From Bilabrum cf. latius (Eukaryota): DNA of 64,000 nt. A model generated the notes under the pieces. It worked only from the letters and a program-made list of their open reading frames with translations. It was not told the origin of the DNA and did not search any database. The position numbers and the translations under genes are program-made. The stretch is taken from the NCBI GenBank assembly GCA_965178125.1, contig OZ237772.1, positions 124,001 to 188,000 of the forward strand, given 5' to 3'. Positions 27,501 through 52,481 of the stretch are shown here, piece by piece (positions within the stretch are counted from its first letter, which is position 1; each line of letters starts with the position of its first letter).

Positions 27501-29232
27501 ACGGCCATGTATAGCCCAGGGAATACATCCTTGGCAAACTTGTTCGTAAACACGTTGCGTGGTGCCATGATCATGTGCAGCAACACCTCCTGCAGCTCCT
27601 CGATTGGCACCAACTAAAAATCGAAAGAGTTGTCAAGCCGGCGAGCTAGGACCTCGTATCCCCCGATCTTGGCAAAATAGTTCACGGTCCCAACAAAGTA
27701 CTTGCAAGCTCCACGGCGCGGAAACTTGGCTGTCTCGCCGATGTAGAGCTCTGCTTCTGGGGCAGTCCCGCACAATACATGCCGTCTGTGATTGAAGAAG
27801 TTAGCGCACTTCTCATCTCCCCGAAATACCCGCACAAGTTGCTAACGAATAACCGGATGCAGTGGCTCGGGCCTGCACATAAAGTATACCCACAAGCGCA
27901 GGATGGCTTGCGTAAAGCTGTATATTTTGTCATCGAGCTCTGGTCTAGCTTCGGTGGAAAGCGCCGATTCAACGACCGGTGCGAGCTACTGCTCGACGAA
28001 TGCAATGGCAGCCTCGAAGGCAACTTTGCCGTGGATGATGGCGTCTATTTCTTTCCCCATTCCCCTTAGAGTCTCTGCATCGATTTTGATTCCATCGCCC
28101 TGACTGCCCACGACGCTAGACGCAGCACCGCCTCGGCCACCGGTGGGTCGCCGACCTTGGGCCCAAGACATAGTCCCCCATGCAGCAAGGTCCTTTGACC
28201 GCTTCAAGAGCTCAAGCTCGGGGTCCATCCCATGTCCGTACCTCTTGACGTACACGTGGGATCTGGTCAGGATCGTCACGTGCCCCAAGCTCCACTGTCC
28301 TTGCCACCTCACGTTGCATCGGTCGCCCACCCTGAGCGTCTCGCCGGCGAACTCGGGGAGGTCGCCCGGCTGCCGATGGCGGACTGCGAGCCTTACCTTC
28401 ACGGGGGCTCCCTCCGGACTGGCCGTGTGCTCTAGCACTGTGTAGCCATCTGCGCAGGAAGGTATTCAATGGAAATAATATACAGGAGAAGTATGGCTGT
28501 TTGGAATCGCTCGTGTTTCTCGGGGCACCCATCCGAGCGGCCCGGGCCCGATCAGGACTCTGCACATATCGATGAATCGGAAAACATGACAGCAAGTAAT
28601 GCACCCGCGACTGCCGCATGGCTGGCCTTGCGTGCGCTCGTCAACTTAGGGGTGGGCGTTGCTACCATCACCACCGATACGTGCATTGCTGCCAAGAGGC
28701 TGTTTGCCATCTTCGAGGGTGATGCAGACGTGGAACGGAGCTAGACAGAGCGCAAGAAGCTGCTCGTGGCAGCGTGCACCTCCTGACGATGATGTCCGCG
28801 AAAGGGATTAGTAGTCGTCAAGATAGCTAAGACCAGGCTCCTAGGCTCAACTTCTTTCATGTAAAACAAAATACCAATGAAAGTAAACGTCTCACCCGGT
28901 GCAGCATCAGCGCCGTGCAGGACGGCAACATCGACGACAGGTGGTTCATCTGCATCTTCTGCCATTCGCCGGACAGCAATAGAACGATGTGTACTTGCCT
29001 CAGGCCCACATGTGGCATCTATCTGTAGCCTTTCCCAACCCGCTGGGCAAGCTTCCGTACCTTGCATCAGCCGAATCTCAGCGATTTCATGTTTAGGAAT
29101 TTGTTTAGACAGCCACAGCCAGGACGCAGCGTCGCCGCTTGCTCCGTTCAATGATTGATCATGCTTGCAATTGAACATTGTTGATTTCTGGGCCTATCCG
29201 TGCGTAATGCCTATGTCAGTGATGCCAGACAT
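24506..29232 (-). CDS. Chimeric protein: MABP beta-prism, 2x [Tudor/Agenet-like + USP9X/24/34-like N-terminal helical segment], C-terminal 'WRRA-SEGRP' ankyrin-like module; ~1426 aa; exons 29232-28896 and 28449-24506
   Basis: MABP-like motifs ITDIGITHG, EIRLMQGTEACPAGWERL, PPVVDVAVLHGADAAP|DGYTVLEHT across a GTGAGA...TGCGCAG intron. LRVGDRCNVRWQGQW..GHVTILTRSHVYVKR occurs twice, as does NYFAKIGGYEVLARR. Seven standard-code ORFs share one frame separated by TAG; first TGA at 24506-24508. Confidence 0.75.
26190..28365 (-). repeat. Intragenic duplication (~0.9-kb units at ~27400-28365 and ~26190-27098)
   Basis: Near-identical nucleotide block encoding DLPEFAGETLRVGDRCNVRWQGQW, with collinear protein similarity through FEAAIAFVEQ, MCRPEPLHP, GACKY, VPIEEL. 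Confidence 0.9.
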
Positions 29233-31179: not shown

Positions 31180-32324
31180 ACTCGGGAGCCTCTATACGTG
31201 TCACAGATATTATGTATACCTCACGCCGGATGGGGTCCGGGTTTGATGTGACGATGGGAGCGCAGGTAGGAATGTCTCCCAGTTTGTTCCGTTATAGGAC
31301 CGGTCGCAACCGGTGGTCGACGCGCAAGGAGACAGAGTCTGATTCGTTGTTGACGTCATGATCCTAACGCCGGATGGGGTTCGGTGTTGATGCCAGAGTG
31401 GGAGCGCGTGAATGTCTCGTTGGGTTCCGATGGCGGTTGCGACCGGGAAGGTGCGACCAAGCCAACGGATTTCTTGCGATGACGCGCATACCCTCTCTGT
31501 GTTCAGGAGAGGGGCGGAGATTGGGTAATTTTTGCATCAAATGAGATGATAAGCGTCTGTGCCATGAGAATGGCTCTGCGAAGAAGGAGAACGCGGCAAC
31601 ACCTTGTCCGTAAGTGGGAAGAGGAATTGTAGCCTCGAACGAGGGTCCGATACGAGATCTCGAAGGTGGTGATGGTGAGTGAATGTCACGATACGACTTT
31701 TTCTCAAACTATTTGAGTCCCCCCCAAGGACACGGGTCCGCTAGACAAGGCAGCGAGCGAGGGGGGGGGGGGGGGTCCTTGGGGCTGGCCAGAAGGCTGC
31801 TACAAGGAACTCTTGCCAGCGGACTGAATACCAATGGCACAGTCATCATACCATAAGGCATCTCCTGCCGTTATATTCCGCAGGTAGAAGCACCAGGCAG
31901 TCTACACAGGTAGAATGTGGTCCATAGAGGACACACTAAAGTCTCGTTATCAGAGCAGTGGGAGCAACCGTTGCATAAATGATATATTCCAAGTTCGAAC
32001 TACTACTCAAACATATTATTCATTCAAGGCACCCTGCAAAGGAGCAGTTGCAGTTCCGGCCGGTCATTCCGAATCCGTAAGAATGGACCGACAATAGCAA
32101 AGCTTTGCGTTAGTTTTCTTGAAATTATTTTTAGGCGGTTTTAATGTAAGGCATATTCATGCTCTGTAATCCTTCTCTATACGTTCCACACTGGCCTACT
32201 GCCTAGACTACATTTCTTTACCGAGAACTGCATTTGACAAGGATCCAAGAGTATGCCTAAAGAAGGAATTCAATTCGTTATTATCAATTTCACGCACTTC
32301 AAACAAATTTTCATTTTGGAACAG

Positions 32325-34125
32325 GTCGGATGATCGCATTCTGAATGCCATCAATGTCAATGTAGATGCACTGAAGCTTTGTATTGAATCTGGAGCCGAC
32401 ATTGAAGCGAAGGATGAGGTGAGATGGCGGCGATTCCGCTGCAAAATGCACCAAATTGTGTGCACTATAGCTCAATGTAGATACCATATGATGGCCCATT
32501 TGCTACTCCGAACGGCTCAATATTGGCTGCCATCCGGTCATCGTTGACCGCGGAGGCGGGGCAGAGACTGCGCCGAGGCTGCACTATGCAACCACTACAG
32601 CCAATACGATCTTAATGGCTCGACATTAATACTAAAATAGTTATTGGTGTTTGACTGCATCTCAAATCCAAAGCAATTCGTGTTTCGTCCCCTGATGTGC
32701 AGGACGGACAAACAGCCTTGTTCCACATGGCTGCGAAAGGTAATACCGAATGTTTAGCGGTGCTCATTGCCAGTGGGGCATATGTGAACGCAGCCTCTGA
32801 GGTGAGAAAGCATGATCAATTGTTTCTTTGCGATGCAAAGCAATCCTTTTGTGAGGGTATTAAGTTCGAGGGCTGGCAAGCCGTTCAACTAGATTCTAGG
32901 CGACAGAGTGGTGCGTGTGATTGCATACAAGTCGGAATCAGGCGCTCTTGTTGGATCTAACTATCAAGAACCTGTTAAACTGTGCCTTTACAAGCCTGGA
33001 GCAGCGGCCTCGTAAGCTTGGATCTCGGACGGACTGACTGGCATACACGCCAGCGGCCAGTCCAGGCGCGCATCTGTCTATCGGCAATGACAGCCATTGT
33101 AGGGATTCGAGCAAGGGAGGCAGGCTCTACTTATAAATACTTGACAGTGTCCACATGGGAATATTTCGGTACCCTCTGCAGGTCACGATGTGCTTGCTAC
33201 TGTACGTGTGACCTGAGAGTACCTACTCCCCTACATACCTGCACAGCCTTGCACATGCCCCCCGACGCTTGGCCTCAGGACGGTGACACTGCTCTGCACT
33301 GGGCTGCCGCACACGGGCGTAACGACTGCGTGCAGCTGCTCGTTGATAATGGGGCAGACGTAGACCGGCAGAACAAGGTAAGGTGCTAAGAGACTGCATG
33401 TAAGCGCGGCGATGGGTCGAAGATCCAGCCGATCTTGGAACGATTCGAGGAACGACTGAGACAGGACGTTCCAACCTGACTCTCATCATGGAACCATCCA
33501 TAGTTTACTGGTCTCAGTTCTGCCCATATTTGAATTGGCGCTGCTGCAGCTTCGGCTAGTTGGCCAAACAATGTCGCGATGTTTCGCAGGACGGATTTAC
33601 ACCCCTGCACTGGGCAGCACAGTACGGCCAAACCGGTTGTGCCTGTATCCTAATGGAAGCAGGCGCCCATCGATTTGTTAAGAGTACTGTAAGTCTCAAT
33701 TCGGCGTTTCGAGCGGCCTTGAGCCAGCCCGCGAAACGGACGTGTATCCTATACTAGAAGCTCTAGATACATATCATACTTCGCAGGCTGGCTTCACACC
33801 TGTTGAATGTTCTGACGCCGAGGAATGCACCGACACATCAGCTGCCATACGGTCCTTTGTCCCAGCTCGGATTCTTCGTGTCTGGTGTTGGCGGCGTGCA
33901 GCGCAGGCTGGTGTGGATGCTGGGATGGTGTTCCAGGCAGCGAGCGAGGGCAGGCCCATGGAGCTTGCCAGGAGGCTTGCACTTGGTAGTCTGGCGGGTG
34001 GGCTGGAAATTAAAGGCTTATCGGTACTAGCTGATGGCAGCACTTGCAGTGTGCTACCGATAGAGGCAGCCAGGCTAGGAGGTCATGACGAGTGCGTGAA
34101 GCTGCTGCAGGAGGCCATGGAGTAA
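32325..34125 (+). CDS. Ankyrin-repeat protein with C-terminal 'WRRA-SEGRP' module; exons ~32325-32418, 32703-32801, 33279-33377, 33590-33688, 33787-34125 (5' end upstream, unresolved)
   Basis: Ankyrin repeats LCIESGADIEAKDE|DGQTALFHMAAKGNTECLAVLIASGAYVNAASE|DGDTALHWAAAHGRNDCVQLLVDNGADVDRQNK|DGFTPLHWAAQYGQTGCACILMEAGA, with GT-AG phase-0 introns; ends TAA. Confidence 0.88.
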
Positions 34126-34482
34126 CGTATGTTAAGGATGACATTACTTGGGAGCGGGCCAAGGTGGGAATAGGACCATGGGCGTTATTGTAGTGAATCC
34201 ATGTGATTTGCACCGGCACGATCTCCGAGGTTGGGGCCACCGGTCGCATAAAGTACCTGCTTGTGGTGCAGAAAACGACCTGTAATGACAGAATGGCCAC
34301 GAGCGAGAACAGGTCAGCAGGAGGGGTTGACTAGATATCTAGCACGGATCATGGATATGCCAGTGGTGGGTTTGTTTGGCAGGTGGGCTAGCTACAGACT
34401 ACTGCCGACAGATCTGACCATCGTCTATAGGGTATACGTAGTAGCTCAGTATCTAGAAAGTTTTCATCCCCAATTTCTTAAT

Positions 34483-37400
34483 TTAGTCGTGCCTCTTCCA
34501 TAGGCACTGACGAGCCTCGAATAGCCCTAACCTGTCACTCGGGCTCCACTGCAGCAGCCCCCGCACCATCGTGCGGAACCAATCAGGATATCGAGTTGCT
34601 CCGGATCCAGAATCATCCTCGAGCGCTGTAATCTCTTCCTCACCGTACTCTGCGCCAGAATAGTCATTGTAGTCCGGAATCGGGTGCGTGCCGCATGTTG
34701 CCAGCTCGTGCAACAGCACACCAAGTGCAAAGGCTGCTTGCTTTCCATAAGGAATTTTGAAACGCGGTCTCTGTCTTCGCGGGATGTGGCAGCTTCGCTC
34801 TGATGCTCGAATTCAACAAAGCGTCTTACCACCTCAGGCGCAATGTGTTGTGGATTTCCGCCCCGATGATTCTATACATCCACCATGGTTGTCGAATTGA
34901 GCTAGTTCAGCACATCAGTGTACCGACTTGGTGGAGCACCAGCACCAGCACCAGCACCAGCACCAGCACCAGCACCAGCACCAGCACCAGCACCAGCACC
35001 AGCACCAGCACCAGCACCAGCACCAGCACCAGCACTGCGCCCTGGTGTAGCACGTTCAAGCCAGGCTTGGTCACATGACTAGTGCGTCTCAGGCACAGGA
35101 GCACGGTATGACTCACCCATGTCTATTATAACGAATCGGAGGCCCTCGTGGAGAGACAAGATCCCATCGGAGTCTTTGCAGCGGCCAGTCAGTACTGGGT
35201 CGTCCACCATCACGTTATTTAGCTTGAGGTCCCGGTGCACCACGCCGTGCCAGTGCAGGTGCCAAAGACCTTCCGTGATCTGCCTCGCGGCTTGCAGCAT
35301 CAATGGCCATGGGAGCAGCTCATCAGTCAGAAAGCACATGCGCCACATTTCAAGTGACTGTGGAATCCATTCCATTGCCATGAACAAAGCGGATAGTCGC
35401 TATCGCTGTGGTGACATTGAGCCAGCTGACGCATGGGTTTCAGCGCCTACTGTCCCTAAAACTTGCTCATCACTCGTCATGCAGTCGTGCCAAATCCAGT
35501 CGGGCGGAGCGGCCTGCAATACACCAAGTATTCGAACCAGGTTGCGATGCCTTGGAATTTTCTGTAGTGCACGGTGCTCGGCTTGAAAGAGCCTCCTGTT
35601 GCCCACCGAAGACCTACCGAAGTTCGGGAGGAGTTTTAGGGCAAGGCAAGCTGGTGCCCCCTATGATGGCTGGGGTGTACTGCAACCTGCACCGGACGCT
35701 GATGCAGCAGCTTGTTCAGTCGGAACTGCCACTTTGCACAGGCACACAGTACCTATTGCGCCCCAGCCCACGACCCAGCTGCCTTTAGGGACTCGAAATG
35801 TACCAGGAGGTCGCGCAGCGAGCTTGCGTGCGGCCCGGCCCGCTAGCTCTGGAAACAGTGCCGACTCAAGATCCTTGAACTTGTCTGCTTCCTCTTTTGC
35901 CAGCTGCAGAGAGTCAAGCACCTGATTGGCCAGGTCGCCTTTTACCACCCCGTTCAACTGGGTCTAGCTTACCTCGCTGGCTCCAGTTGCAGCGTCGGTA
36001 CTGGTAGGTCCCGAATCGGCCAATCTATCTCTGATTGGCCGGAGCTGGGGCGAAAGCTCTGGTGGCTGGGTTGCCGAAATCACGTATTCCATTGCATCGG
36101 CTTCCCTGGCAGCAGCCATAGCAAGCGCCTCACAATGGTTCTTTGGCTTACTATTCGACACAATCTCATCACGTGCTGCAATCTCATGCTTCAGAGATTG
36201 TTCCCTCGCTTTGGCTGCGCGTACCTTCTGCTACAATGCTGCAGACGCGTCACGCTGCTGCTACATTTCACGCTAGAGCTCGCGGAGCTGAAGCCTGGAT
36301 GCAAACAACTCGTCATCTTTGGCTTGTATCGCCGCCTCAGCATCCCCTTGCACCTGCGACAGTCTCGACCGTAAAGATGTATTGTCCCGCTTCGCCTCGG
36401 CCAAGCTCGCCGACGTCGCGCCAAGCTCCGCCTCCCGACGGGCCTTGTCGTCCCGCAGCTCCCGCAGCTCAGCCTCCATCCCAGCCTTCTGCTCCGACAG
36501 CCCAGACACCTCCTGCTTGGCCTAACCCAGCTGACGCTCTGAATCTTCCAGCCGAGCCTACAGCTTGCTACGGGCGATATCCAATAATCTGAGCGCATTT
36601 TCGGCGTGTGCCGTTCTTGCTTCTAGCTGCTACTGGCAAGCTGCAGCCTACTATCTTTCAAGTGCGCGCCCCTCCTTCTCCGCCTTGCCTTCCTCCTCGG
36701 CCCGGGCCAGCTTCACGCGCACCTCCTCCAGCTCGCGCTCCTTCACAGCCAGTGCCTCTGCCGATGCCTTCCCAGCCTGCTCCAAGGCCTGCTGCTCCGC
36801 ATTCAATGCGCCCTTGAAACCATCACGCTCAGACTCTATGGTTGTCAAATCTCTTCGCAGCTCTGACTCTTTGGCCTCAAAGGCCTCTATTCTCGCCATA
36901 TGATGCTGTTCCGTGGTATGCAGACGAGACACTAGGGAGTTCCGGTCCTTGGTTGTCTTGGCCAGCTCCTTCTGCAGCTCATCCCGCTCCTTACCCAATT
37001 GAGACAGGGTGCCAGACAGCTCCGCCACCCGATCCGACAGGCTGCTGGCCTTGGCAGACTGACTGCTCAGCTCCGCTTGACTAGTGCTGTACATTTCGTG
37101 CAGCATGGAGTGCTCTCTTGCTGCCACTGCCCTGGCGATACTGTGCGAAGCCCTAACCCACCGTAAAAACGCACGTCCAGTATTCGCTTTGCACCTCGAA
37201 TTCAAGACATCCCTCAGCTTTTTACGAGCAAAACGTCGCCGCTCAACAAACGCACGCCACGTCCCAAATAACTTGCACAGATTACTCTAGCGCAACCTTT
37301 GATCAGCTACGGCGCGTGCTTGTTGCAGCTTGGCTTGTAGGCGTGCAATTGAAGCAGCCAAAGCCTTTTTGACATTTTTCTAATTTCTCTTCAAACGCAA

Positions 37401-40400
37401 CCCTTGCACCTTCTGATCTTCCACTAGACTTTGCACCCTCCTCAGGCACAACACTGCAGCCCCCGGTTTTGCCAAAGGAAAATCATCCAAGCGTGGCAAG
37501 TCCGTTGATCCTTGCCTACCTAAATCTAGGTCTAGGATCCTACTTTGGTAGTCTTGAGACGACCCATACAGAACCTAAATGGATCGCTCGAGCTAATGGT
37601 GCATTGCTTCAAGATCGGTTTGGACGCAACGTAACTCCCTAATGGCATCACCACCCTTCGATGCGCCGGCCCAGCAGGCTTCCTTAAAGAAATCAAAGGC
37701 GGACGAATTTGAGCCCGCTGCCATCCTGATCAGTCGCAAGGAAACCGTAGCTATGCTGTTCTGCACGTCATGACCTTGTGTCAAAGTACATTGGTCCACA
37801 CCGCCAACTTCTGACTGCATCGGTTGTTGCTCGGTTACTCTCCGCGGCAAACTACCAATCACCCGCACGCAGCCCGATACCATCTAGACCCGTGGCAGTG
37901 GAAAGTAGTGCTCCTCTGTAAATCCTGTAGACGCCGCAGAAGCCGCCGGATTAGTATGTTGGGATTGCGCGGAATACTCGATTATCTTGAGGATGTGCAA
38001 GAGGGCAAGCTGCCCCTCAGGGCATGCGAGTGTCTTCGGCAGGTCAATAGCTTCATCCAGCATGATTTTGGCGAGACTCTCGATCGCGCGAGTCTTCATG
38101 AGGGCTCTCATCCAGACCCTACGAATCGTATCTCGCTCATCTGAGAAGAATTTGTGCAGAAACTAGACCAAGACTGCAATCGTCCGCGTTGCAGTCGCAA
38201 CAAGGGGACCGGCCGTGAATCTGCGATGTTGACTAGCTCCGAAAAGTAGCAATGACATTTAATTGTACAGATCCCAAGAAATCCGATTTATACTTAAGAT
38301 AACACGCATGAACAATGGCAAGCAAGCACTATGTAGACCGTTGCCAGCACGGCTCGTTGCCAGCACGGCTTACCGCAAAGATGGTAACTGCTCTTCTATC
38401 AGCTGTATTGCCTTATCAATGCAGGCACATCCACATGACAACCGATCAATACCTTTGACATGAGCGTATGTCAATCGAAGCAGGCTCGATACATCAGCTC
38501 TAACATTGGGATCCGTTACCTGCGAACACGAACCTAGTCAACATCATAGAAAAGCATCATGTGAGCAACTGCAAAGCATTTCTATGGAACCAGACCTCAG
38601 GCTAAGCTAGTATGTATACGATTCATGTGAATTCGCGCTCACCTTCACCAGCATTTCCCATAAGGCAGATATCCCCGGCGTACATGGGGTGGCCGCATGT
38701 CCTGCCTGCTGCTCGATCATGCCTAGATTCAAGGAAACAAACAACCTCTCAAAGCACGAAAACGCCTGCCTCGACAAGCTTTCATACTGCATTTCCTCTT
38801 TGTTGCACATGAACGCATAGAAGATGTCCTGGGCACTGCAGTCTGGGAGGTGCAAGTCGGTGTCGGCCCTACCAAAAGAGTAGATCTACTCCAGCCATGA
38901 GTACAGCACATCGCGCTTCCAGCTAGATCCTGTCTTCAGTTGTTGCCAAATACTGCTAAAGGTCTCGATATTCACTGCAAAGCCTCTTACCTCGAGATTG
39001 ATCGAGCCGATTAAGTCCAAAATCAACCTCAACTCTCGAATGTGCCTTTCCTTGGATGGATCTTGTAAGGCTTGAACGTCCGCGATCGAACAGCTGACCC
39101 TGCTCACTCCAGCGCGATGCGGATCCCTCCGGGGTGATACTGATCGCTCCTTCGCACCATGCTGCGGCTGCAGTGACCCAAGAAGTAACGAAGTGAGATC
39201 TAGGTTTTGATCCATGTACGTTGCCACGGTTTTAGCCAATGTTCTGCGTTCCTCGGAAATCCCTCGTGCGGCTGAGAAGCCGCTGACTTCATGTGCCTCA
39301 GCTGCATCGGATATATCGTGTCGTTTTGCCTGCTCTAGAACTTCCCAGAAAAATTGAATGCATCCGAGGACTTTCGAAGCTGATTGCAATCCGCCTTTAG
39401 CCCTGGAGGCGCTGTGGTGCCACACACAGTCCATGTCTTCTCGAATTGACAGGCGCCCTAAAGCACGTCGTGCAGCTTTTGCCACGTCACGGTGCTGAGA
39501 TGTAGATACGCCAAAGAGAAAATCAGCAATGATCTGCTGCGTGTCGACTCTCATGGTTGTCGGGAAGGTCGACGATCGACCTGACGGGCAATCGCAGGCA
39601 CCCGCCGAGGCAAGGCAAAGCTGTTCCATGAGGTAAATCACAGACTGGCGGTAGTCACTAACTTCAACCAATTTTACAATACGTTGGACGCAACAGACCA
39701 ACTTGCATAGCGTCATGTATGGGGCGATACTCTCGATAAGTTTAATGATGCCATCGCCTTGGTCGCTGTGCGTTGCCATCACTCGTCTGCGCAAGACCAG
39801 CATGCCATCTATGTCTGCCTCAGTCAGCTACTTCGTCCTCGCAAGCAATTCTAAGATGCTAGTTGCTTCAAGCAGGAGATCGGCTCTCTCAGCGTCAGAT
39901 ATTTGCAGATACCTTGGGTCACCAGCTGCTCCAGCCGATCCAACACAGGACGCTCCCTTTGTCCGTTCCAATGCGTGGCTCTCTTCTTCGAACGCAATGC
40001 ATTCCTTCTAGTCATAACCATTTTCTAATGATCCTGATTCTTGCAATTCGACATGAGAAGCTGGGTCTTGGCTTGAGCTAGGACCGTCTCGAGAAAGTCG
40101 TCTGAGTAGATCTGGCATCCACATGTCTTCGTCAAATGCACATCTGCACGCCTATGGGTCCTTCGGATCTTGCACAAGCAGCTGGACTAACGGCGTCATG
40201 CCGAGAAGCCGAGCATATACACATGTATCCAGCTTGATGCGGGGATCATGAGGGGAATCGGTGACTACACGGCGCAAGGATTCCTTGACTCTCGTATTCA
40301 GCTTTCTCAACGCAGCTCGTCTCGTTTCAAAGGTCCCGGTGATGCTTTGTTTCATGCACATGGACGCATGCCATGCCTCCATAGTCTTTTCTGGGGCCGC

Positions 40401-41647
40401 TCCTAGTACTTTCCCATATCCATGGAAGCCACATCGATCTCGCGAGTACGGCACAGGCTTGCAGATGTTCAAGCTCAGTCTGTTTATCCGTTTGACAACA
40501 GCCCCAGGAGATCCATCGGACAGTTCGCGAGCGGTGCGTCGGATGAGTCTTGACAACACTGCAGTATACAGCCTCGGAAAAACTTCCTCGGCAAACCTTC
40601 TTGAATACAAGGGCATCGGCTTACAGATCACAGTGGCTGTCAGCATCTGAAGTTCGTCCAAAGGCACCTAGAATTCAGTAGATCCCTCTATCCGCCTACA
40701 AACGGTTTTGTAACCATCGATGTTGCAAAAATATGTGATCATACCGACAAAGTATTTGCAAGCGCCTCCTGGAGGAAACTTGATGAAGTGCCCAGAGTAA
40801 AATTTGGCATCCCACGCGCTGTCATATGCTCCCGTCTCCCGCATGTTGAAAAAGTAAGCACAGCTCTCGTCGAGCAAGAATAGCCTCTTGAGCTACTCGG
40901 TAATAATAGGTGGTATTGGCTTTGGCATCGACAGATAGTGAACGCACAAGTGAAGCACCTCCTTTGCAAACCCGTACACGGCCTCAAAATCGTCGGCCGG
41001 GACTCTTGAAGCAAGCATTCTCTACAATCGTGGTGCCATCGTATTCTCAATGTAGTCCAAAGCTTCTTGTTCAGTCTTTTCGCGTTTGATGATCGAAGCG
41101 ATCTGATCCACAAGACTCTTTAAGGCAATCGGCCGGGCGATTTCCCGTGCGCCTTTACTTGCAGACGGGTGTTTCGATGTTTTCCCCGCCAGAATAAGGT
41201 CGTACTTGCCATCCGCCCCGATCCTATACTCGTAGACCTCACCATTTTCCCACCGAACTGCAGCCCAACCACGCCTCGGATGCCCAACTATGGTCCCTTC
41301 CGTAGAGTGGCTCTAAGGGAACCAATCCCTGTGTCGAGTTCAATTGCAGTAAATTATGTGAAGCTACATAGATGTAAAATTATGTGCGACAAATGGGGTG
41401 TCATGCACAGCAAAGCAGAGCCTCACCAATCATGACCTTTTCGGACAGTTGTCCCTAGCGTGGAGAATTTCTTATTTACGCGAGTCACTGGCTGCGGAAC
41501 ATCTAATAAGAATATTCTTCGCAGAAGTGAGCCAGGATTAGGTGATAGTATGCGCCGTATTCGTAAGAAGGCTACGTAGATCGAAGTAGCACTAGAGCCT
41601 ACTGCTACTCGGGCCGAAATATGTTTGGACTGCTTCACATATTTCAT
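34483..41647 (-). CDS. Chimeric protein: Mib/HERC2 domain, USP9X/24/34-like N-terminal helical scaffold, coiled coil, PINK1-like protein kinase; ~2243 aa; exons 41647-41427, 41328-38643, 38519-38374, 38220-34830, 34770-34483
   Basis: Mib/HERC2 GTTVRKGHDW|DWFP[TAG]SHSTEGTIVG..GWAAVRWENGEVYEYRIGADGKYDL; USP9X-like AFSCFERLFVSLN and GISALWEMLVK|VTDPNVRADVSSLLRLTY; kinase VGWGAIGTV, LALK, HRNLVRILG, HRDLKLNNVMV, IIDMG, RGGNPQHIAPEV, YGKQAAFALGVLLHEL, GLLQWSPSDR. More than a dozen standard-code ORFs share one frame joined by TAG; in-frame TAA/TGA occur only inside predicted introns. Confidence 0.8.
34935..35036 (-). repeat. (GCTGGT)n microsatellite encoding poly-Ala-Gly within the kinase activation segment
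   Basis: About 16 perfect hexamers (ACCAGC)n on the + strand, between DMG and APE. Confidence 0.95.
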
Positions 41648-42846
41648 TTAATATCTTACCATTTTACAGAGTTGTTTAGTGCCTATATTTAAATAGCCCA
41701 CTCAGATGGCTACGACGCTCGCGAATATGAGGTTGCACGAAACTGTGCGCCGATCCCGAGCAAGGTCGATGTGCCTTTGACCACTTAGCGAACGTTCGCG
41801 ACGGGTTCATCTTTCGTCGTTCATTCTAGACTATTGAACTTTGAGTGCTCCTTCTACATGCCCAGTGGCCAAATCACGGGATCCACTCCCACAGTTGGAG
41901 CAGTTCAATTATACGAAAGATGTCATCTACCCCCAGCTCTATCCCCCCTCTGGAACAGTCTGCCCCGAATCGACTGAACCGCTCAGTCTCGTCTCGCACA
42001 TGCTAAACCACACTCGTCACAAATGTACACGTTACCCCTGTTATTGCACCGTCCGCGCCTCCAGGCTCGCCCCGGTGCCTCCCTGTCTATTCCAACCCCA
42101 TTCTGATCTGCTGTCACCCTTGGCACCCTTGCGAGTCAGCCCTCGTCAGAAATCCTGCCGCCTCGTGATCTGGATCCACTTGGCTGCGCCCGCTTCACCT
42201 CCCTACCCAATGGGCCTCCACGCTCCCGAGCCCGCTGGCTTGCTCGGGCCTGTCAGTGCCCCTTCGTTGTCCCTGCCACGCGCCTGGTACCGCGCTCGGG
42301 CCCCCCCTTCCCCTCTTTCTCCCTTTCTCCCTTTCTTCCTTTCTTCCAATCATCTTGGAATCTTTCTCCTCTCCTCAGCCTTGCCCTCTCCCGGCCAACC
42401 TCACTCGTACTGATCATCGCATCAACCCCCCCCCTCTGCTCTATCCTGACCCGTTGCCCTCCTCTACCCACCCCCCCTCGCCGTTCCATCATATCCTTCC
42501 ATCACTGCTGTTCTCCACCTGCCTGCACCCTGCCGCTGTATCCCTCCCCGGCGGAGCCCTCACTGCCGTCTCACAGACCTCAATCCCAATGTCTTGACGA
42601 CACAGATAAATGGAGAGTGTAAAAGACCTCGACTTGGAGTAACAGGGGGCAACAAACAAGCAAAGCTCGTGGACCGACCTGTATCCCTCAGTGTCAAGAC
42701 AACTCTGGACAAGCAGGAAAATCAGTTGAGTAGTCGGTGACGCCGCGCAACCGCTCAGCGCAACATGCAAGAGACCCTGATCACAGTGTCACATCAGAGT
42801 CGAAAGCTTCGCGTTAGGTATCTGACATCAAATCAGCTCTCAAACA

Positions 42847-45122
42847 TCACAAGGCTTCAATCATGGCTTCTAGGCGGCGCACCTCAGCCTCGTCCTCGTC
42901 CTCGTCCTCAGGTTCCTCCTGCCCACCACTGCCAGCGGCAACCTCCTTCCCAGTACTACTAGAAGCCGCGACGCTGCCGAGGAAATCTTCCAACGCGTCC
43001 TCCGACTCCGGTCCGCCACCCGCCCCGGAAGCGCCCCTGGGCCTCTTTGGTGTTAACGACCCACCACTGACATGAGCCCCAGACGCGCCTGACGTCGATT
43101 TGTCGCCCATCGCCTCCTGCTGGCCCTGCACCGCCATGCGATGAATCTCAGAGAGGATTTCGGCGGTGGCCGTCGCGCTGGGCACGGAATCACCGGTTTC
43201 ATCCATGTCCCTTGCATGCTCCTGCCCCACTAGCCTATCTTGCTACTGCTGCTGCTGTCGCTGTCGCCTTGCAGCCGACTGTTTCCTGGCGTACTCCACC
43301 CGTTCCTGCCTCTGGGCTGCCTGCGATGGCATGCCATACGGTCCGGGCTGCTACTGCTACCAGCCGGCATCAGCGTCGACCGTGGCTACACGAGTCTCTC
43401 GCGTTCGCTGGCTTGCTCTCGTACCCGTGATGGAGGGACCTTCCGGAGTCGCGTGCAGCTGCTGCAGCTGCTACCCGCTGGAATGTATCTGAATCTCTGC
43501 CTGAGCCTGCCTCTCCAGCTCTCCTTCAAGGAACTGAATCCTGCGCAGGATCGCTTGTCGCGACTCTGACACCGCCGCGCGCGCCGCCTCGTGCTCGCGC
43601 TCTCGCCCAGGTGCAGGCGCGCTCACCCTCACACCGCTCTCCTCCGCACCCAAGATGCTCCGCAGCTCTCGTAAGGTCGCCTCTACGTCCTACCGGTCCT
43701 GAGTCGAGAGGATGTTGACCTTGCGGTCGCGACCCGCTGCCATGCGTCGTGCCGTGGCGGTCGGGACCCCTGTGGGTGGTGTGCCAGCTTGCCCACTGCC
43801 CCGGGGTGATCGCGCCAGCACGCTGTTCCAGGCTCCTTTTCGTTCGGCTGGAGTCATGGTAGATCTTGCGGGCTGCTTGTCCACCGCGCGGCCGAACGCA
43901 TGCCTGGGCCTTGCACCTCGCGAGCGGCTGCGAGCTCGGGGGCCTCTGGCATGTCTCGATTGGCCGCCTGCACCACCCTTGCCATGTCGATCAAGGCCCA
44001 TCTGCTGCCCGATTCGGTCGAGGACGATGCGAGCCGCCTGCTCCTCTGGTGTTCCGGACTCGTCAGGCAGCGAGTTCTCCCAGGATAGAGACTCGTGTTT
44101 TGCTCCTTGTGTACCAGCACGTGCCCTTCGTTTCCTGCCACTGCCAGCCGACTCTCTCGAAGCCCGCTCCTAGGCGTCCTGCCTCCGTCTCGCCTCTTGC
44201 ACCTTTTGGGCCGCGATCTATCGAGCGGTCTCGCGCGGGTTTGTGCCTTGCTGCTTTGCTGCCATACTGCCGGCGCCAGTGCTTCTTTGGAGATCGGCTG
44301 TCTGGAAGCGGGACCCGGAGGCAGCATGGGCTGCAGGAGACACGGCGCTGCCGCTCATGCGATGTGACGAGTGCCTGGGCGGCGGCGGGGGCGGGGGATT
44401 CCTCCCCCCGTCCCCCGATGGGTTGTACGAAGCCACGGTGTCGGCGTCGCTGAAGCTGACGCTGAATCCCCGGCTAGACCCGTGGGGCGACCGAGGCGGG
44501 GAGCCCTATTTACGCAGTGCGGGGGGTGGCACTGTGTCTGGTCCGCGCCCTGGATTGTATTTGTGGCTCTGCATCGGTCCCGTTGGTCCAGCCGTTGCAA
44601 TGCCTGATGGTTGCCGGCGGGCCTCGTCATCTGTCCGGCTCTTCATTCGCCTGCTGGTGCCTTTCCGATGCCTGTTGTCTTGCGAAGATTCGTGCAGGCG
44701 GCCACGCACGGTACCATGCCTGCCACGCTCACGGCCATGAGAGCCACCCTGCTCCACGTCTTCCAACCACTCTTTCTGGTTATCCCCGAGCCCGGCCGCC
44801 CTCGCCGCCCTCTCTGCGCTCCCTGTCACGGCCAGCTCCCCCCTATCCAGCAGGCGGCTGCGCTCCGCTCTGGCGCGACGCTCCGCCGCCTCTGTCCGGG
44901 CGGCAGCACGGGCAGCCTCCCGGCGGCGCCTCCGCGCCGCTGGGCTGTCGTCCTTGGATTGCGCGGCGCCAGCGGAACCGTGGCCCGATCGAGGCGGGCT
45001 CGCAGTGCGCACAGAGGCGCCGAGCTCTGCAGCCGCCATCTCGATGAGAGCCGTTGAGTTCTGAGACCGGGGCGCCCCCTGGCCGCCGTGCGTGCTTTTG
45101 ACAGGGTGAGCAAGGCTGGCTG

Positions 45123-45153
<31 letters not shown>

Positions 45154-48100
45154 TCTCTCTCGCCTGGCCTCCCCACGCGCCTTTGCCTCCGCCACCTTCC
45201 GCTTGGCCTCCTCGAGCGCGTGTTCCCTGTCCGCCAGGGTGGCGTAGGTGGCAACTGCCTTGCGTGCGGGTGACCGGGATCGCCCCCTCCCGATTTGCTG
45301 ATGCTTCTGCTTCTACAAGCGAGCCTGTCTCGCGTCAGCGGCATCAGCGATGGCCTGGTACTCAGCGATCTGTGCTCGGCGGCTTTCTTCCTCCTGCTGC
45401 CTGCTGCGGCGCATTGCGTTGCGGTGCTCCTGCTGCAGCATGTGCTCTTGCGTGGCTTCGTCAAGAGGAACGTCGATCGACCTGCTGAGGCCCAGGGACT
45501 GAACAGCAGCGGAGGCGTCTGGGCGTTGCGGGGATCGTGGCCCCGTGACTTTGCCGACCGGTGGGGGCGCCGCTTTGTCCACGTCTAGAGGCAGGTACAC
45601 CCCGAGCGGCTTCTCGTACATGGATGCTTTGCCCTCGTGTATGGCTGCCTCCGTCCTTCTTCGCTGTTCTCGCCTCACAGCCATGTGCTCCTCGGACTGC
45701 TGCTAGGCGAGCTGGAGAGCGGCGGATCCACGTGCGGAACGTGGGGATGAACGAGCGGAAGATGATGATGATGATGACGATGAGGAGGAGGACCGGGTGC
45801 GCTGGGAGTGGGGAAGCTCTGCCCCTCCTCCTTGCCTATGGCTCCTGCCGAGGTCCTTGGCCCTGCGCACGGTATCTCTCACGGACCGTCGCTGCATCGC
45901 TGCCTGCGATAAGACAGTCGAGTCTTCGTGATCCTGGATGCGGGCCAGTTGCATGGCTTGCGCTTGTTCGTGTCCCTTCCCGTTGCCCGGGGCGTGGAAT
46001 CCCCGCGCGCGGTCAGAGTCGACCTGGGCATCCAACCGGTTGCCGCCGATAGCAAACTCGGCATCATCTGCCCTCCCATGGTGCATCTCATTGCGGGGCC
46101 CAGTCGACGAAGCGGAGCGGGGAGAAGGCAAACCCGTGGGAGGCAGAGCTGCCACGGGCGCAAACCTGTCAAACTTGCTGCGGCCTGGCCTGGTGGCGAA
46201 ATCGCCGTACGATCTCATCCCCTTGGCGTTGGGTGGAGGTGGTCTCGAGGTTGCCAGAGTTGGGATGGATGCACCGGCATCGTCTTTCGCATCGCGCTAA
46301 CGCTGCCTTGGCTGCCCGCTCTTTGGCGGCGGTGGTGGCGGCGGCAAGCTGCCGTCATCTTCGTGCTCGTGGCGATAAGCGTACGCGTCGGCGTGCGTAT
46401 GACTGCCCCATGCGCGCCCTGCGCTGCGCTCGCCCTCATCCTCGAGCGATTGCGCATCGACATCGTAGTCCTCGCCGGTGCCGTACTAGACCGTACCTCG
46501 TGCAGAGTCAGAGTGTTTGGAGCCAGAACCATCTTCCAGCAAGCCGCCCACACCGGCCCGGTGCCCCTCCGGCCCGAGCTGCCTTCTAAGCATCCTCTCG
46601 AGCGCGTCATTCCGTCTCCTTTCCTGCACCAGCTTGGCTTCCTGCGAGTGCAGCCTGTTCCGCAGCGTGGCAGCTAGCTTGAAGCCCTCGGCAGAGGCAA
46701 GGAGCTCGTGCATGGCTGCCTCATGGAGCTTGTTGGCCCGATCCAGTCGCCTGGACAGCACGGCGTTCACGCGCCTTGCCTCGTCCACGGTCTGCTTCTG
46801 CCTCTCCTCTACCCTCCGTAGGGCGTCTTCCAGCTCTGCCTTCTTGTTGGCGGCTTCCTCCCTCAGCTCTTCCTCTTTGGCCATCCATTCATCCTTTTCC
46901 CGCTGCAGCACCTGCTGCCCCTGCCTCTCGCTTGTCGCCCTGGCCTGTTCCGCTGCGCCCAACGCCCGCATCATCTCGTGCCTCTTGCGCTCAGCTTCGT
47001 CCCGGATGTAGGCGATCTCGGCCTGGGACGAGGAAAGCACCTTGGCTTTCTCCGCCTCTATTTCGGACCGAATTCGGTTCTGCTCGGCCCGGCTGCGTGC
47101 TTCCAGCTCCATCATCTGGGACTGCATCTTGCGTTCTGCCTCCTCCTTTGCCTCCTCCCTGGCCCGTGCAGTGGCCTGTGCGGCGAGCTCGCGCTCCTTG
47201 GCGGCTCGTTCCGTTGCCTCGATCTGCAGCTTGGCGATGTCTCTTGCATGCTGCTCAGCTCTCGCCGACTCTTTGTCTCGGGCTTCCTTGGCCTCTTTCT
47301 CGAGCTGTTTGGCACGGTGAGCCTCCTGCTGCCGGAGGGCCCGCTCCTGCTTGGCTGCTGCCTCCAGCACTCGGGCACGCTCTTTTTCCTCCTGCAGCTG
47401 CCGCTCGATCCTCCGACGGAGGCCAGACTCGCGAGCTTCAAGCCGTCGGCGCTCTGCCGCTGCCGCGGCCCACGCCTCGTCCTATGCCTGCCTGGACTGC
47501 AGCTCAGCTTCAGATCTGGCGTGCTCCAGCACCGTGAGCTGCTGCGCAGCCTGCCGTTCTCGTTCAAGGGCGGCTCTGGCAGCCTGCCTCACTGCAACCA
47601 GCTGCGATCGGAGCTCCTCGCTCGGTGCATCGTGTCTTAGTTCGGTGGCACCGGTATTTGGCGCAGCGGTTGACGATGTCCCTGCGGCTGGTGCTTGGGC
47701 TGCATTGAGCAGGACTTCGCTCGATGCGCTGTCTCGGGCGCGTCTCGTCATGGCGATCGCGGCGGATAGCGTGGCAGGCGCTCCCACGAACATCGCCGCA
47801 TTGCCTGGCTGCCTTGCGGCCGCTTGCGCGGCGAGCGAATCGGAGGCAGGCAGGCCACCCGTCCCTCCCTCGGCCAGAGCCGCCACCGCCTCTTCCACTG
47901 CCTGCTGTGCGGGAGGAAGAGCCTTCGCGTCGCGAGCCAAGGCGAGGGCGCGTGCTGCCACAGCCGCCACTGCGTACCTTGCTTCAGGGTCTAGCCCGTT
48001 CGCCACAGAGACCATTCCTCGGATGCGTCGCAGCTCGGTGGATATATCGCTCGCTCGTTCCTTCCACTCTGTCGCGTCTGCTTGGGTGGGGCCGGAGTAG

Positions 48101-51100
48101 GATCGATTCGAAGAGCCTTCGCCCTCGGCTCCCGATGCAGGGTTGTCGTTGCCGTGGTTGCGCAAGGCCATGGCCTGCACCTGCATGGCAGACACGTGCA
48201 CGCTCTCGACAGCCTCATCTGCGTCCTGCAGCACAGCGAGCGCCGCAAGTGCACCATGCGCGCTGCCTGCAGCACGGGCCAGGTGTTCCCTGGCTAGCGC
48301 CCAATGCCTCCCTTCCGATCGGAGCAGTTCCGCTTCCTGCGCGGCGCCGCTATCGGCGTGCTCGCGCAGGGCTTCAAGCCCCCTCGTGCACTCGTCCAAG
48401 CTTGCGCGTGCCCGGTCCTGGGCCGACACGGAGCCAGGCAAGTCACTGGTTCCACTAGTACCTGCGTCCGATTCAGAGCCTCTGGGTGCCAGTACGGTGC
48501 GTAGGCCCTTTGCCATGCGAACGCACCTGTGGATGACCGCCAGCCTGTGCAGAGAGGACACGGGAGCTTCTTGCGCGCTAGCACCGGGTGGCGGTAGCGC
48601 GGCGCTGTCCCCGTGAAAGCAGGAGGCGAGCGTGTCGAGGGCTCCCAGGAACGTCGCTGCTACTCGCCGAACAGATGCACGCTGCACGATAGAGTCTCGC
48701 ACGGATTTGGCCGGTCCAGATTCATCGGAACTCGCCTAGCTTGGCTCCGCCTTGCTCGTCTGGTCTAGGTCTATGGTACCGTCTTCGTCTACGGCATCTT
48801 TATCCCCGTCCGCAATTGCCCGAGCTGCCGCCTCTTTGATCTGTTCTGACGACTTGGACAGCAGTGCTAGTGGCCCGGCCAATGTGCCAGCAAGCTGCGC
48901 TGCCTCGTCATTCCGCATCACGATCTCAGACTGAAGGGCTGCCAGCTTCTCCGAGACTGCCAGCACCTTGTCCAGCGAATCTTTGGACCCACCCGTCGCC
49001 ATGGCCGCAAAGAAGCGCACCTCATCCACGGCTTCGAGCGCTCTGGTGCAGGCCGATAGGCCTGGCGCGTCCGTCGGCTTGCTGCTATTGGGCTGTAGGG
49101 GCTCGCTCGACTTGCCCGCATCTGTGGGCCCTGCAGCCAGTGCGAATCCCAGCTGCCTCGCTGCCGACGATGCGACCGGCCCGATGGTGGCGAGAACCGC
49201 GAGAGGGCGAGCTGTTGTGACGTCAGCGCCGAGGGCCCGGATTGATGCGCCGAGGGCCTCGATCGCCTTGGAATAGTCCTGGAAGAACTCTGACGATGGT
49301 TCGCTGACGATGCCGGACAGGCCTTGCGCAGCGAATTGGATCGATCGGCACTGACTGATGGATTCGTTGACCCGGCTGTGCTCCAGCTCCAGCATCCGAC
49401 TCGCTGCGTCGTATATCGGGACAGCTGCAGCCTTGCAGGCTTTCGCGGCGGCAGCAAGAGGTGGAACGATCGTCTCAGTATCCTCAGTGGAGGATTGCTG
49501 CCCCTCTGCAGCTCCCTCAAGCCGTTCGCATGCCAGGGTCAAGGAGTCGGCGAGATGCTGCAGCCGATGCAACGGTGTTGCATAAGCTCTACCGCTCGCT
49601 GGTTGTCCTACTTCATCAGAGAAAGTACCGGCGCTGCGTTCGTCAGGGCCAGTGCCTCCTGACTCAGTGTACACGAGGCGGAGCATCCGCCCTGAGAGCT
49701 CAGCCGCCTGTGCTGCGGTTCCCGCCAGCGGAATTCCCCCGCGCGGCGCCTCAGCGTCTGAGCCGTTGGCCGGTCCGGCTCCACTTGCGTCAATGTCTGC
49801 CCCGCGCGCTGACCTCCCACTGCCACGCAGGAGGGTACGGGGCACATCACTCCCGCTGAGATCCATGCCCGTCGCACCGGCCTCGGCAATGCACTGTCCG
49901 AGCTGTTGCCCCGCTGAAGCCACCTCCCGCAGTAGCGCGCCTGCACCCAGCTCCAAGGCATCAATTGCCAGCGCTCTCTTCTCCGAGTGCTCTTGGGCCA
50001 GTGCCGCCTCCTTGTCAGCGTCAATGAGATGGCCCCAGTAGGTGGTCTTCCTTGCAGCTGACGAGTCTAACGACGAGGACGAGGACGAGGATGATGATCC
50101 CCGACTTGAGGCAGGCAGCAGATGGCCGTCACCCTGATGGATCCCGCTGTCGTCACCCATGTGCATGGCAATGCGGTGCATGTTTGCCTCATCAAGTGCA
50201 GCCGACACCTTTGCCTGAAGGCCTTTGATGGCTGCAGCAAGCGCCGCAGGCTCGGTTGTACCTAGAGCGGCTTCAACGCCTCCTTTGGCAGCAGACGCGT
50301 CCTTTGCAGCCGCTGCCCCGCCCTACTAATGACCGACTGCATCGCGCCTTCGAATCCTCGCAGCTGCCGTCTGTGCCCTGCTGGCCGCCTGCATCGCACG
50401 GTCACGCGCTTCGTGCAGAGCCAGCACGAGCACTCTGGCAGCCGGCCCCTGCCCCAGCCGTGCGGCACGAGCGGCCACAGCGGCAGCAGCCATTGCGTGC
50501 CGACCGGGAGAAGCTGGCTAATGCAGAGCTGGCGATATGGGCTTCACAGGTTCTGGTGGTGTGGACGGACCTTGGTCATGTTCCTCGTCCTCGTCTTCCG
50601 CCACCGGTTTGCTGCCTCCTGCGGGTCCTTGGCTGCTGCACGTAGCCTCTCCTGACCTGGAGGCACTGGCGCTCCTCCTGCCGCTGTCGTCAACCACTGC
50701 TTGGTCGAAGGCAGCACTTGCATCTTTCGCGGCGGCCTCAACAGCGGCCCGCTCCAGGGCGGCCGCTGCCTCTGCTGCCTGAGTCTCCAGCTTCCTCTGC
50801 TCTAGCCTGCGCTGCTGCTGGGCTAGTCTAGATGCCTCATCCTGCCTTTCCTTCTCTTTTTGCACCTCGGCCAGCCTCTTGGCCGCCTCTCTCCCGGCTT
50901 CTTTGGCCACCCTCTCGGCCTCCTGTTCCGCGATCTTTCGCTGTCTGGCCATCTCCTCTTCATGCCTCATCTACGCCAGACGCAGCGTCTCTTCGCTTTC
51001 TTCCTTTGCCTTTCGTAGGTCCTCTAGGGCCTTTTGTTCCCTGGCGCGCAGCTCCGATTCTGTTCGTGCCATGGCCTCGGCTGCCTCGGCTCGCGCCCTC

Positions 51101-52447: not shown

Positions 52448-52481
<34 letters not shown>

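What the first reader, a model, noticed from the sequence alone, without database searches (positions are those of the whole stretch)
34483..41647. Deubiquitinase-type scaffold whose catalytic domain appears replaced by a PINK1-like kinase
Seen: USP9X/24/34-like helical region with no USP Cys-box or His-box recognised, followed by coiled coil and a kinase with PINK1-like signatures (ALKLLPNFG, RGGNPQHIAPEV, IPYGKQAAFALGVLLHEL..HP) and intact Lys, HRD and D(M)G residues. Established: PINK1 phosphorylates ubiquitin, and Mib/HERC2 domains occur in ubiquitin ligases. Inference: an architecture I do not recognise, potentially a scaffold-targeted ubiquitin kinase.
Basis: partly seen in the sequence, partly recalled or inferred. 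Interest (0 to 1): 0.72.

Follow-up and report, generated by a model that had tools for sequence, protein, structure and literature searches.

The report
Patchwork kinase gene with broken end
This is a transcribed gene in a single-celled eukaryote, stitched together from parts of three of its other genes, and its PINK1-related kinase has lost its last part to a frameshift, so it is probably a young, dying chimera and not a new ubiquitin kinase.

Summary
The architecture is real once TAG is read as Gln. A five-exon model gives one stop-free 2218-aa frame: Mib/HERC2, the N-terminal half of a USP9X/24/34-type DUB without Cys or His box, a coiled coil, and a PINK1-related kinase.

Both ends, and the first two introns, come from a Mib/HERC2-SPRY-coiled-coil-kinase gene family of this genome. 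The DUB part is a copy of an intact DUB on C29 and shares two introns with it. The coiled coil is 83-86% identical in DNA to a giant repeat gene on the same contig.

Contigs of 4 of 4 runs from three studies, one of them spliced, match the assembly there. The encoded kinase therefore lacks helices alphaF to alphaI. PINK1's ubiquitin-binding insertion-3 motif, targeting signals and C-terminal region are missing.

Best reading: a lineage-specific chimera, once under selection, recently broken. Seen in passing: nuclear UAG=Gln with UAA as stop and a CUA tRNA.

The parts
41660..41662 (-). Likely start codon, followed at once by a 168-nt GT-AG intron (41659-41492)
   Evidence: The same ATG|GTAAG layout and the same 22-residue run up to 'DW' occur in the C10 Mib/HERC2-kinase gene. 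Inferred, not covered by laid RNA.
41184..41470 (-). Mib/HERC2 domain (aa ~9-71), split by a 98-nt phase-2 intron (41426-41329)
   Evidence: PF06701 E 2e-6 on the downstream half. The same intron site is found at 7 donor sites in Mib/HERC2 units of the C10 and C18 kinase genes.
40269..41126 (-). DUB-derived block 1 (aa 91-376 = parent 121-408)
   Evidence: 37% identity, E 3e-54; coordinates
37974..39056 (-). DUB-derived blocks 2 and 3 (aa 781-1049 = parent 961-1189 and 1549-1601), with introns 38642-38520 and 38373-38221
   Evidence: E 4.5e-12 and 2.4e-6. Parent block 941-1072 hits PF25010 ARM_UBP24_USP9X-Y. Both introns match the parent's in place and phase.
36210..37394 (-). Coiled coil copied from a 4930-aa repeat ORF at G000:C38:278847-293636
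   Evidence: 83-86% DNA identity over 189 and 456 nt
35769..36065 (-). Pre-kinase segment shared with the C10 and C18 kinases
   Evidence: BLASTP alignment to the C10 kinase starts here
34761..35768 (-). PINK1-related kinase, in-frame part: Gly loop, Lys (35636), alphaC Glu (35579), HRD Asp (35231), DMG Asp (35123), APE Glu (34835)
34935..35048 (-). Gly-Ala repeat inside the activation segment
   Evidence: sequence; repeat reported at 34935-35035
34755..34830 (-). Loop holding the frameshift: 74 nt between APEV and IPY, not a multiple of three
   Evidence: Same letters in contigs of 4 of 4 runs. The exact lesion site is not fixed; paralog loops are 15-28 aa.
34483..34755 (-). Out-of-frame kinase C-lobe (alphaF to alphaI, 90 codons, still stop-free)
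   Evidence: PF00069 positions 179-260, E 0.0097; 51-54% identity to the C10 and C18 kinases
34464..34757 (-). 96-residue unrelated tail actually encoded after the shift, ending in TGA

Best explanation
A lineage-specific chimeric gene, transcribed but now encoding a dead kinase. A copy of a Mib/HERC2-SPRY-coiled-coil-kinase gene lost its SPRY region. By DNA-level rearrangement it took up the non-catalytic N-terminal half of the genome's USP9X/24/34-type DUB and, probably later, part of a giant coiled-coil repeat gene (composition shown; order inferred). While intact it most likely worked as a cytosolic, scaffold-tethered Ser/Thr kinase, with Mib/HERC2 and the helical solenoid as binding modules and the coiled coil as a spacer or oligomeriser (inferred). 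A recent frameshift replaced helices alphaF to alphaI with an unrelated tail (shown). Without alphaF the kinase domain cannot assemble (established kinase structure, recalled). The present product is at most a binding scaffold, or an early-stage pseudogene product.
For: Single stop-free 2218-aa model with four GT-AG introns, two shared with the C10 kinase gene and two with the C29 DUB. DUB-derived block 3, the coiled coil and the kinase lie in one exon. The kinase groups with the Mib/HERC2-bearing C10 and C18 kinases and one public protein (support 99) and has the longest branch of the four, 0.76 against 0.28-0.44. The frameshift is matched by contigs of 4 of 4 runs from three studies; X6 shows five GT..AG joints in the neighbouring ankyrin gene, so it holds spliced RNA. 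All 14 paralog loci read have the C-lobe in frame. GC3 is 0.50-0.62 against 0.87 in the parent DUB and 0.67-0.70 in the kinase and giant donors. The C-lobe query matches 32 places in the genome, so the family is large. Two other truncated copies of the same DUB start exist. No DUB-type segment was found in 177 public relatives.
Against: Pairwise dN/dS is below 1 in every module where it could be computed (0.17-0.62; 0.24-0.25 for the out-of-frame C-lobe; several dS saturated), and the C-lobe has no stop. This fits a recent lesion but also a rescued frame, and pairwise values include selection on the donor. The X6 contig over the gene's 3' end has depth 121 (the tool warns against ranking by contig depth). 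Contigs drop rare variants, so a minor spliced form or allele is not excluded. The runs may all be one strain.
Confidence: 0.68

Rival explanations
1. A functional scaffold that no longer needs its kinase: the Mib/HERC2, DUB-solenoid and coiled-coil parts are under selection as an adaptor, or as a decoy for partners of the intact DUB, and the kinase was lost without harm.
For: About 2100 codons stay open upstream of the lesion. dN/dS 0.17-0.49 in the youngest, coiled-coil blocks. The shifted stop lies only 19 nt past the old one, so the mRNA should be stable (inference). Two other DUB-start copies also keep long open frames.
Against: No ortholog found. Strong divergence from the parent (28-37% identity) and low GC3. 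No binding data.
Confidence: 0.17
2. The frame is rescued in a fraction of molecules, by a 59-nt GT..AG intron (34829-34771) or by -1 ribosomal slippage at A_AAA_TTC (34758), giving an active scaffold-tethered kinase of unknown substrate.
For: The 59-nt candidate has a GTAAG donor and would leave a short loop before the C-lobe. The C-lobe is intact and conserved.
Against: No joint in X6 or X7 contigs there. The introns modelled or seen at this locus are 98-477 nt. The heptamer is not of the X_XXY_YYZ form, and the downstream fold is no better than shuffles (z about -0.3). Frameshifts were absent from 14 of 14 paralogs.
Confidence: 0.1
3. One reading: an intact scaffold-targeted ubiquitin (Ser65) kinase derived from a DUB by replacing its catalytic domain.
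For: The family profile ranks 12 PINK1 sequences first. A Ser sits at the position of PhPINK1 Ser202 when counted from the catalytic Lys. Ubiquitin-like domains are fused to 5 of 55 scanned relatives and a U-box to 1.
Against: The frameshift is real. The insertion-3 pattern is absent in 0 of 95 domains, and Pro stands where PINK1 has Phe in the FNY motif, in 1 of 51 domains with that motif. No transmembrane segment and no C-terminal region. The gene's ends come from a kinase gene.
Confidence: 0.02
4. Two or more separate genes, or a mis-assembly, read as one.
For: No ortholog confirms the fusion.
Against: DUB-derived block 3 and the kinase share one exon. Five runs hold 95-98% of the sampled words of 33500-42000. 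X6 holds 0.83 of them, against 0.816 expected for exons only. In-frame stops fall only in introns conserved with the donors.
Confidence: 0.03

Closest known systems
PINK1 (Pediculus, Tribolium, human; PDB 7t4k, 6eqi, 9kmr)
   Same: Top PDB matches of a 51-sequence family profile (155-177 bits; next 142; Aurora up to 118). Ranks 1-5 in Foldseek for a model of the C10 paralog, though only slightly ahead of ULK1. Shared AxKxxxN, LPxHxN and GGNxxxxAPE motifs, and an insertion at the insertion-3 position.
   Different: No mitochondrial targeting or transmembrane segment, no insertion-3 motif, no C-terminal region; in this gene the C-lobe is out of frame. The window's own kinase was not in that profile. 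A 5-row profile that held it ranked FGFR4 first and PINK1 lower.
USP9X / USP24 / USP34 deubiquitinases
   Same: The parent on C29 hits PF25010 and PF00443, and its catalytic part is closest to USP9X, then USP34, in the PDB. The window gene holds three colinear blocks of its N-terminal half.
   Different: No catalytic domain and no C-terminal half; parent residues 1-120 and about 1190-1548 are absent.
Unnamed PINK1-related kinase family of diverse eukaryotes (GGNxxHLAPE ... YxKQxxFxxG ... HP)
   Same: 173 public representatives at E <= 1e-10. About 30 places in this genome. Readily fused to other domains: ubiquitin-like 5, SPRY 3, Sel1 7, Ras 2, Arm 2, U-box 1, of 55 scanned. One member is named as a sponge protein.
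   Different: None of the 177 public proteins tested carries a DUB-type or Mib/HERC2 segment.
Mib/HERC2-SPRY-coiled-coil-kinase genes at G000:C10 and C18
   Same: Closest kinases (51-54% identity), with shared 5' intron layout.
   Different: They carry several Mib/HERC2 units (SPRY hit in C10) and an intact kinase; they have no DUB part.

Membership tests
PINK1 orthologs | Kinase domain closer to PINK1 than to other solved kinases | tested here: met
   Family profile A2 and Foldseek on a paralog model (narrow margin). The window kinase is linked to the family by the tree. The small profile A1 did not rank PINK1 first.
PINK1 orthologs | One clade with bona fide PINK1 in a tree | not tested
   No named PINK1 sequence was among the stored proteins; the tree has 95 rows without one.
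PINK1 orthologs | Mitochondrial targeting sequence and transmembrane helix before the kinase (PMC8828467, passages) | tested here: not met
   The N-terminus is Mib/HERC2. Highest 19-residue hydropathy is 1.55, inside the kinase (run on the earlier 2269-aa model).
PINK1 orthologs | Insertion-3 forming the ubiquitin-binding site (PMC8828467, passages) | tested here: not met
   An insertion exists at that place but with unrelated sequence; the motif pattern matched 0 of 95 domains.
PINK1 orthologs | Autophosphorylated Ser202/Ser228 after strand beta3 | tested here: inconclusive
   A Ser lies nine residues after the catalytic Lys, as in PhPINK1; position only, in a Ser-rich loop.
PINK1 orthologs | C-terminal region packing on the N-helix | tested here: not met
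   Even the out-of-frame C-lobe stops right after the last kinase helix.
PINK1 orthologs | Phosphorylates ubiquitin Ser65 | not testable with these tools
   Needs an in vitro assay.
Active eukaryotic protein kinases | Lys, alphaC Glu, HRD Asp, DFG-type Asp, APE | tested here: met
Active eukaryotic protein kinases | Complete C-lobe (alphaF to alphaI) in frame | tested here: not met
USP9X/24/34 deubiquitinases | USP catalytic domain with Cys and His boxes | tested here: not met
USP9X/24/34 deubiquitinases | N-terminal helical scaffold (PF25010 region) | tested here: met
   No direct Pfam hit in the window gene; met through homology to the parent, which hits PF25010.
Mib/HERC2-containing E3 ligases | RING or HECT ligase domain | tested here: not met
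   No such Pfam hit in either long ORF.

The most novel reading that the evidence does not exclude
A minor splice or a ribosomal -1 shift restores the C-lobe, giving a 250-kDa kinase that a captured DUB scaffold carries to the DUB's own clients. In addition, this widespread PINK1-related family, repeatedly fused to ubiquitin-like, U-box, SPRY and Mib/HERC2 modules, phosphorylates ubiquitin or Ubl domains outside mitochondria. That would make ubiquitin phosphorylation an old, modular eukaryotic signal.
Probability: 0.04. Interest if true: 0.75.

Novelty: new variant of a known kind. Interest (0 to 1): 0.3.

Why it matters
As it stands, this is a clear case of gene birth and probable death by domain shuffling: all three donors, their shared introns and a rough order of events can be read in one genome. 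It does not give a new ubiquitin kinase. Two leads look more valuable than the gene itself. First, the intact C10 and C18 kinases and their many relatives allow a direct test of whether PINK1-like ubiquitin phosphorylation exists beyond animal mitochondria. Second, the organism uses UAG for Gln while keeping UAA as stop. The papers I saw list that variant only for a fornicate and some ciliates, and this organism is probably neither.

Tried and rejected
Standard code: the region breaks into short ORFs. Table 6 versus 15: TAA is not needed as sense; in-frame TAA fall in introns, and TAA ends an actin and a tubulin gene (2 of 9 loci).

Assembly error at the A-run near 34758: rejected, 4 of 4 runs match.

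Word-index homolog searches were poor. The window kinase region gave nothing among 8000 candidates, probably swamped by the Gly-Ala repeat. The parent DUB start gave nothing among 769 long proteins. The family alignment gave 25 hits, mostly generic kinases. These blanks are weak evidence of absence.

The JGI metagenome scan gave 2 loci. The close one starts mid-gene, so its upstream architecture is unseen.

A single-sequence fold of the DUB-derived block failed (pLDDT 41) and was not searched. A recalled resemblance of the giant coiled-coil donor to Sfi1 got no Pfam support. A consensus pattern for a suppressor tRNA found nothing; the Rfam search did. The within-genome and external TAG tally was noisy (Q in 21 of 56 and 3 of 9 sites) and was superseded by the dynein test.

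No named PINK1 could be placed in the tree. No ESM Atlas result is available for this protein. The exact lineage was not settled. No RNA holder was listed on record as RNA; RNA status of X6 rests on its joints, that of X7 is a guess.

Earlier scan notes: none found. Literature searches for this architecture or family and for this code in stramenopiles listed nothing on point; the library lacks most subscription papers. No supplements were read.
Full report
Setting. The window is G000:C38:124001-188000 of a 48.6-Mb, 111-contig eukaryotic assembly. Under the standard code the region breaks into short ORFs. With TAG read as sense, long ORFs appear throughout the window, for example 3867 codons with 27 TAG and no TAA. 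In dynein heavy chain paralogs, 16 of 26 conserved columns holding a TAG have Gln as consensus, against 149 of 219 for CAA/CAG-coded Gln (96 TAG sites aligned in all, 29 of them Gln-majority). A nuclear tRNA with anticodon CTA lies on C23 (22 nuclear loci scanned out of 48 matches). TAA ends 2 of 9 actin and tubulin genes checked. I therefore used table 15.

Gene model. The best model on the minus strand is ATG 41662-41660, then exons 41491-41427, 41328-38643, 38519-38374 and 38220-34464. It has four GT-AG introns of 168, 98, 123 and 153 nt and gives 2218 residues with no internal stop. All in-frame TGA and TAA codons fall in introns.

Donor 1, a kinase gene. The kinase query found many paralogs (64 matches of 134 scored, many of the weak ones only through the Gly-Ala repeat); the C-lobe query found 32 places of 34 scored. 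The closest are on C10 and C18. Both carry Mib/HERC2 units, a coiled coil and an intact kinase, with a SPRY hit in C10. In a 95-row FastTree the window kinase groups with these two and one public protein (support 99) and has the longest branch of the four. The intron inside the Mib/HERC2 'DW' motif occurs at 7 donor sites in the C10 and C18 genes. The ATG|GTAAG start with a 22-residue run to 'DW' is shared with C10 (not found in the C18 stretch held). Both ends of the gene thus come from this family.

Donor 2, a DUB. An intact 3172-aa USP gene on C29 has its Cys box at 2075 and His box at 2363. It hits PF25010 and PF00443, and its catalytic part is closest to USP9X and USP34 in the PDB. Window residues 91-376, 781-997 and 996-1049 match parent 121-408, 961-1189 and 1549-1601 in order (renumbered). 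Introns 3 and 4 match the parent's in place and phase, so the copy was made at DNA level. Nothing of the catalytic domain is in the window. Two more truncated copies of the DUB start exist, on C34 and at window 24506-28465. They are 58-61% identical to the parent and only 35-37% to this gene.

Donor 3, a coiled-coil gene. The coiled coil matches the 511-residue repeats of a 4930-aa ORF about 120 kb away on C38, with 83-86% DNA identity over 189 and 456 nt. Synonymous divergence is 0.3-0.5 here, against about 2 or saturated for the kinase and 1.4 or saturated for the DUB blocks, so this piece probably came last. Pfam names no informative family for it.

The kinase is broken. Lys, alphaC Glu, HRD, DMG and APE are in frame. 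The stretch between APEV and IPY is 74 nt, so IPYGKQ...HP and the rest of the C-lobe lie in another frame. In 14 of 14 paralog loci read, this loop is in frame (15-28 residues). Contigs of 4 of 4 runs from three studies cover the site with no other letter, gap or joint. Run X6, labelled 'probably DNA' by the tool, has one contig with five GT..AG joints in the neighbouring ankyrin gene and no cover of those introns, so it holds spliced RNA. X7 covers only 34511-34930 of the gene and its RNA status is a guess; X1 may be the assembly's source. X6 holds 0.83 of the sampled words of 33500-42000, close to the 0.816 expected from exons alone. That fits transcription along the gene but does not prove one transcript. 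The product ends in a 96-residue unrelated tail. Contigs drop rare variants, so minor forms are not excluded. A 59-nt GT..AG stretch could reopen the frame but is not seen spliced. The only slippery-looking heptamer, A_AAA_TTC, is non-canonical and has no downstream structure (z about -0.3).

Against simple decay: pairwise dN/dS is below 1 wherever computed (0.17-0.62), including 0.24-0.25 for the out-of-frame C-lobe, which has no stop. The lesion must be recent, or the frame rescued. For relaxed constraint: GC3 is 0.50-0.62 against 0.87 in the parent DUB and 0.67-0.70 in the other donors. Other window genes range from 0.61 to 0.80, so this sign is modest.

Kinship to PINK1. A profile of 51 family members (three paralogs from this genome and 48 public proteins, not the window kinase itself) ranks 12 PINK1 sequences first in the PDB. 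A model of the C10 paralog (pLDDT 83) ranks PINK1 at 1-5 in Foldseek, by a narrow margin over ULK1. A five-row profile with the window kinase ranked FGFR4 first. PINK1's hallmarks, from passages of PMC8828467, are a targeting sequence, a transmembrane segment, an N-helix with C-terminal region, Ser202, and insertion-3 as the ubiquitin site. Here the targeting parts and C-terminal region are absent, the insertion-3 pattern matches 0 of 95 domains, and Pro replaces the Phe of the FNY motif (the role of that Phe is recalled). A Ser does sit at the Ser202 position. So this is a member of a broad PINK1-related family (173 representatives at E <= 1e-10), not a PINK1 ortholog. The family is fused to many partners: of 55 longer hits scanned out of 150, 5 carry ubiquitin-like domains, 3 SPRY, 7 Sel1, 2 Ras, 2 Arm and 1 a U-box (for six proteins only the best five families were shown, and a few of the 55 are generic multi-kinase proteins). 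None of 177 public proteins matched the DUB or Mib/HERC2 parts. A tree with named PINK1 was not possible.

Mechanism. Shown: mosaic origin, missing DUB catalytic domain, out-of-frame C-lobe, transcription of the 3' end. Inferred: before the lesion the protein was a cytosolic kinase tethered through Mib/HERC2, the helical solenoid and the coiled coil, with unknown substrates. Now it is a kinase-dead product, either on its way to loss (0.68) or kept as a scaffold (0.17). Rescue by splicing or slippage gets 0.10, separate genes 0.03, and an intact ubiquitin kinase 0.02.

Novelty. I found the architecture nowhere else, but coverage of protists in the searched collections is thin. Literature searches listed nothing on it (listings only). 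It is a new variant of a known kind of event, domain shuffling in an expanded kinase family.

The code. UAG=Gln with UAA as stop is reported for Iotanema spirale (PMC5304391, abstract) and for phyllopharyngean ciliates and Protocruzia (PMC11687900, passages). The mitochondrial contig C111 (38.4 kb) gives 23 long ORFs under table 4 against 7 under table 11. UGA=Trp is described for bicosoecid mitochondria (PMC6723347, passages). A bicosoecid stramenopile is my inference, partly from recalled gene features, and is untested by phylogeny. A related metagenome contig shows the same TAG read-through (5 in 802 codons, 10 in 1178). Three searches listed no paper on this code in stramenopiles.

Noticed in passing
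whole genome; tRNA at G000:C23:907607-907679 (L078:1500-1574): Nuclear code with UAG=Gln and UAA/UGA as stops: Gln consensus in 16 of 26 conserved dynein columns, and a single-copy tRNA with CTA anticodon. The organism is probably a bicosoecid-like stramenopile (inferred). Three searches listed no report of this code there. Possibly more notable than the finding itself.
   Followed up: partly
L122:1-2406: A metagenome contig from a related organism (kinase 53% identical) also reads through TAG in its long ORFs, so the code may mark a clade.
   Followed up: partly
L078:1500-1574: The CUA tRNA resembles this genome's tRNA-Gln(UUG) in the D-arm but its tRNA-Tyr in the acceptor stem; its origin is open.
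   Followed up: no
window 24506-28465 (-) and L025:4555-7440: Two further truncated copies of the same DUB's N-terminus with long open frames; the window copy holds the start twice in tandem, and both end in a shared unrelated C-terminal part.
   Followed up: partly
G000:C38:278847-293636 (L047, L048): A 4930-codon ORF with near-identical 511-residue coiled-coil repeats (98% between two units compared), no informative Pfam hit.
   Followed up: partly
L049 (C10:205400-208400) and L050 (C18:430300-434600): Intact PINK1-related kinases preceded by tandem Mib/HERC2 units, each split by the same intron; C10 has repeated Mib/HERC2-SPRY blocks. These are the best candidates for an activity test.
   Followed up: partly
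P0011, P0017, P0022, P0029, P0101, P0034: Public PINK1-related kinases fused to ubiquitin-like or U-box domains, in more than one branch of the tree.
   Followed up: no
L005-L015: A local expansion of the same kinase family, many members followed by armadillo-like repeats (repeat type recognised by eye).
   Followed up: no
window 32145-34125 (+): Neighbouring gene, ankyrin-repeat type by eye, with five introns confirmed by a spliced contig; its 3' end (33915-33977, 34050-34116) matches many other contigs, so it belongs to a repeat or gene family.
   Followed up: partly
window 5260-8748 (-): A 1162-codon ORF with a weak AAA_16 P-loop hit (E 0.0013) and 19 TAG codons.
   Followed up: no
window 42847-54450 (-): A 3867-codon low-complexity, coiled-coil-rich ORF just upstream on the same strand.
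   Followed up: no
G000:C111 (L118-L121): A 38.4-kb mitochondrial contig, 24% GC, opening under table 4.
   Followed up: partly
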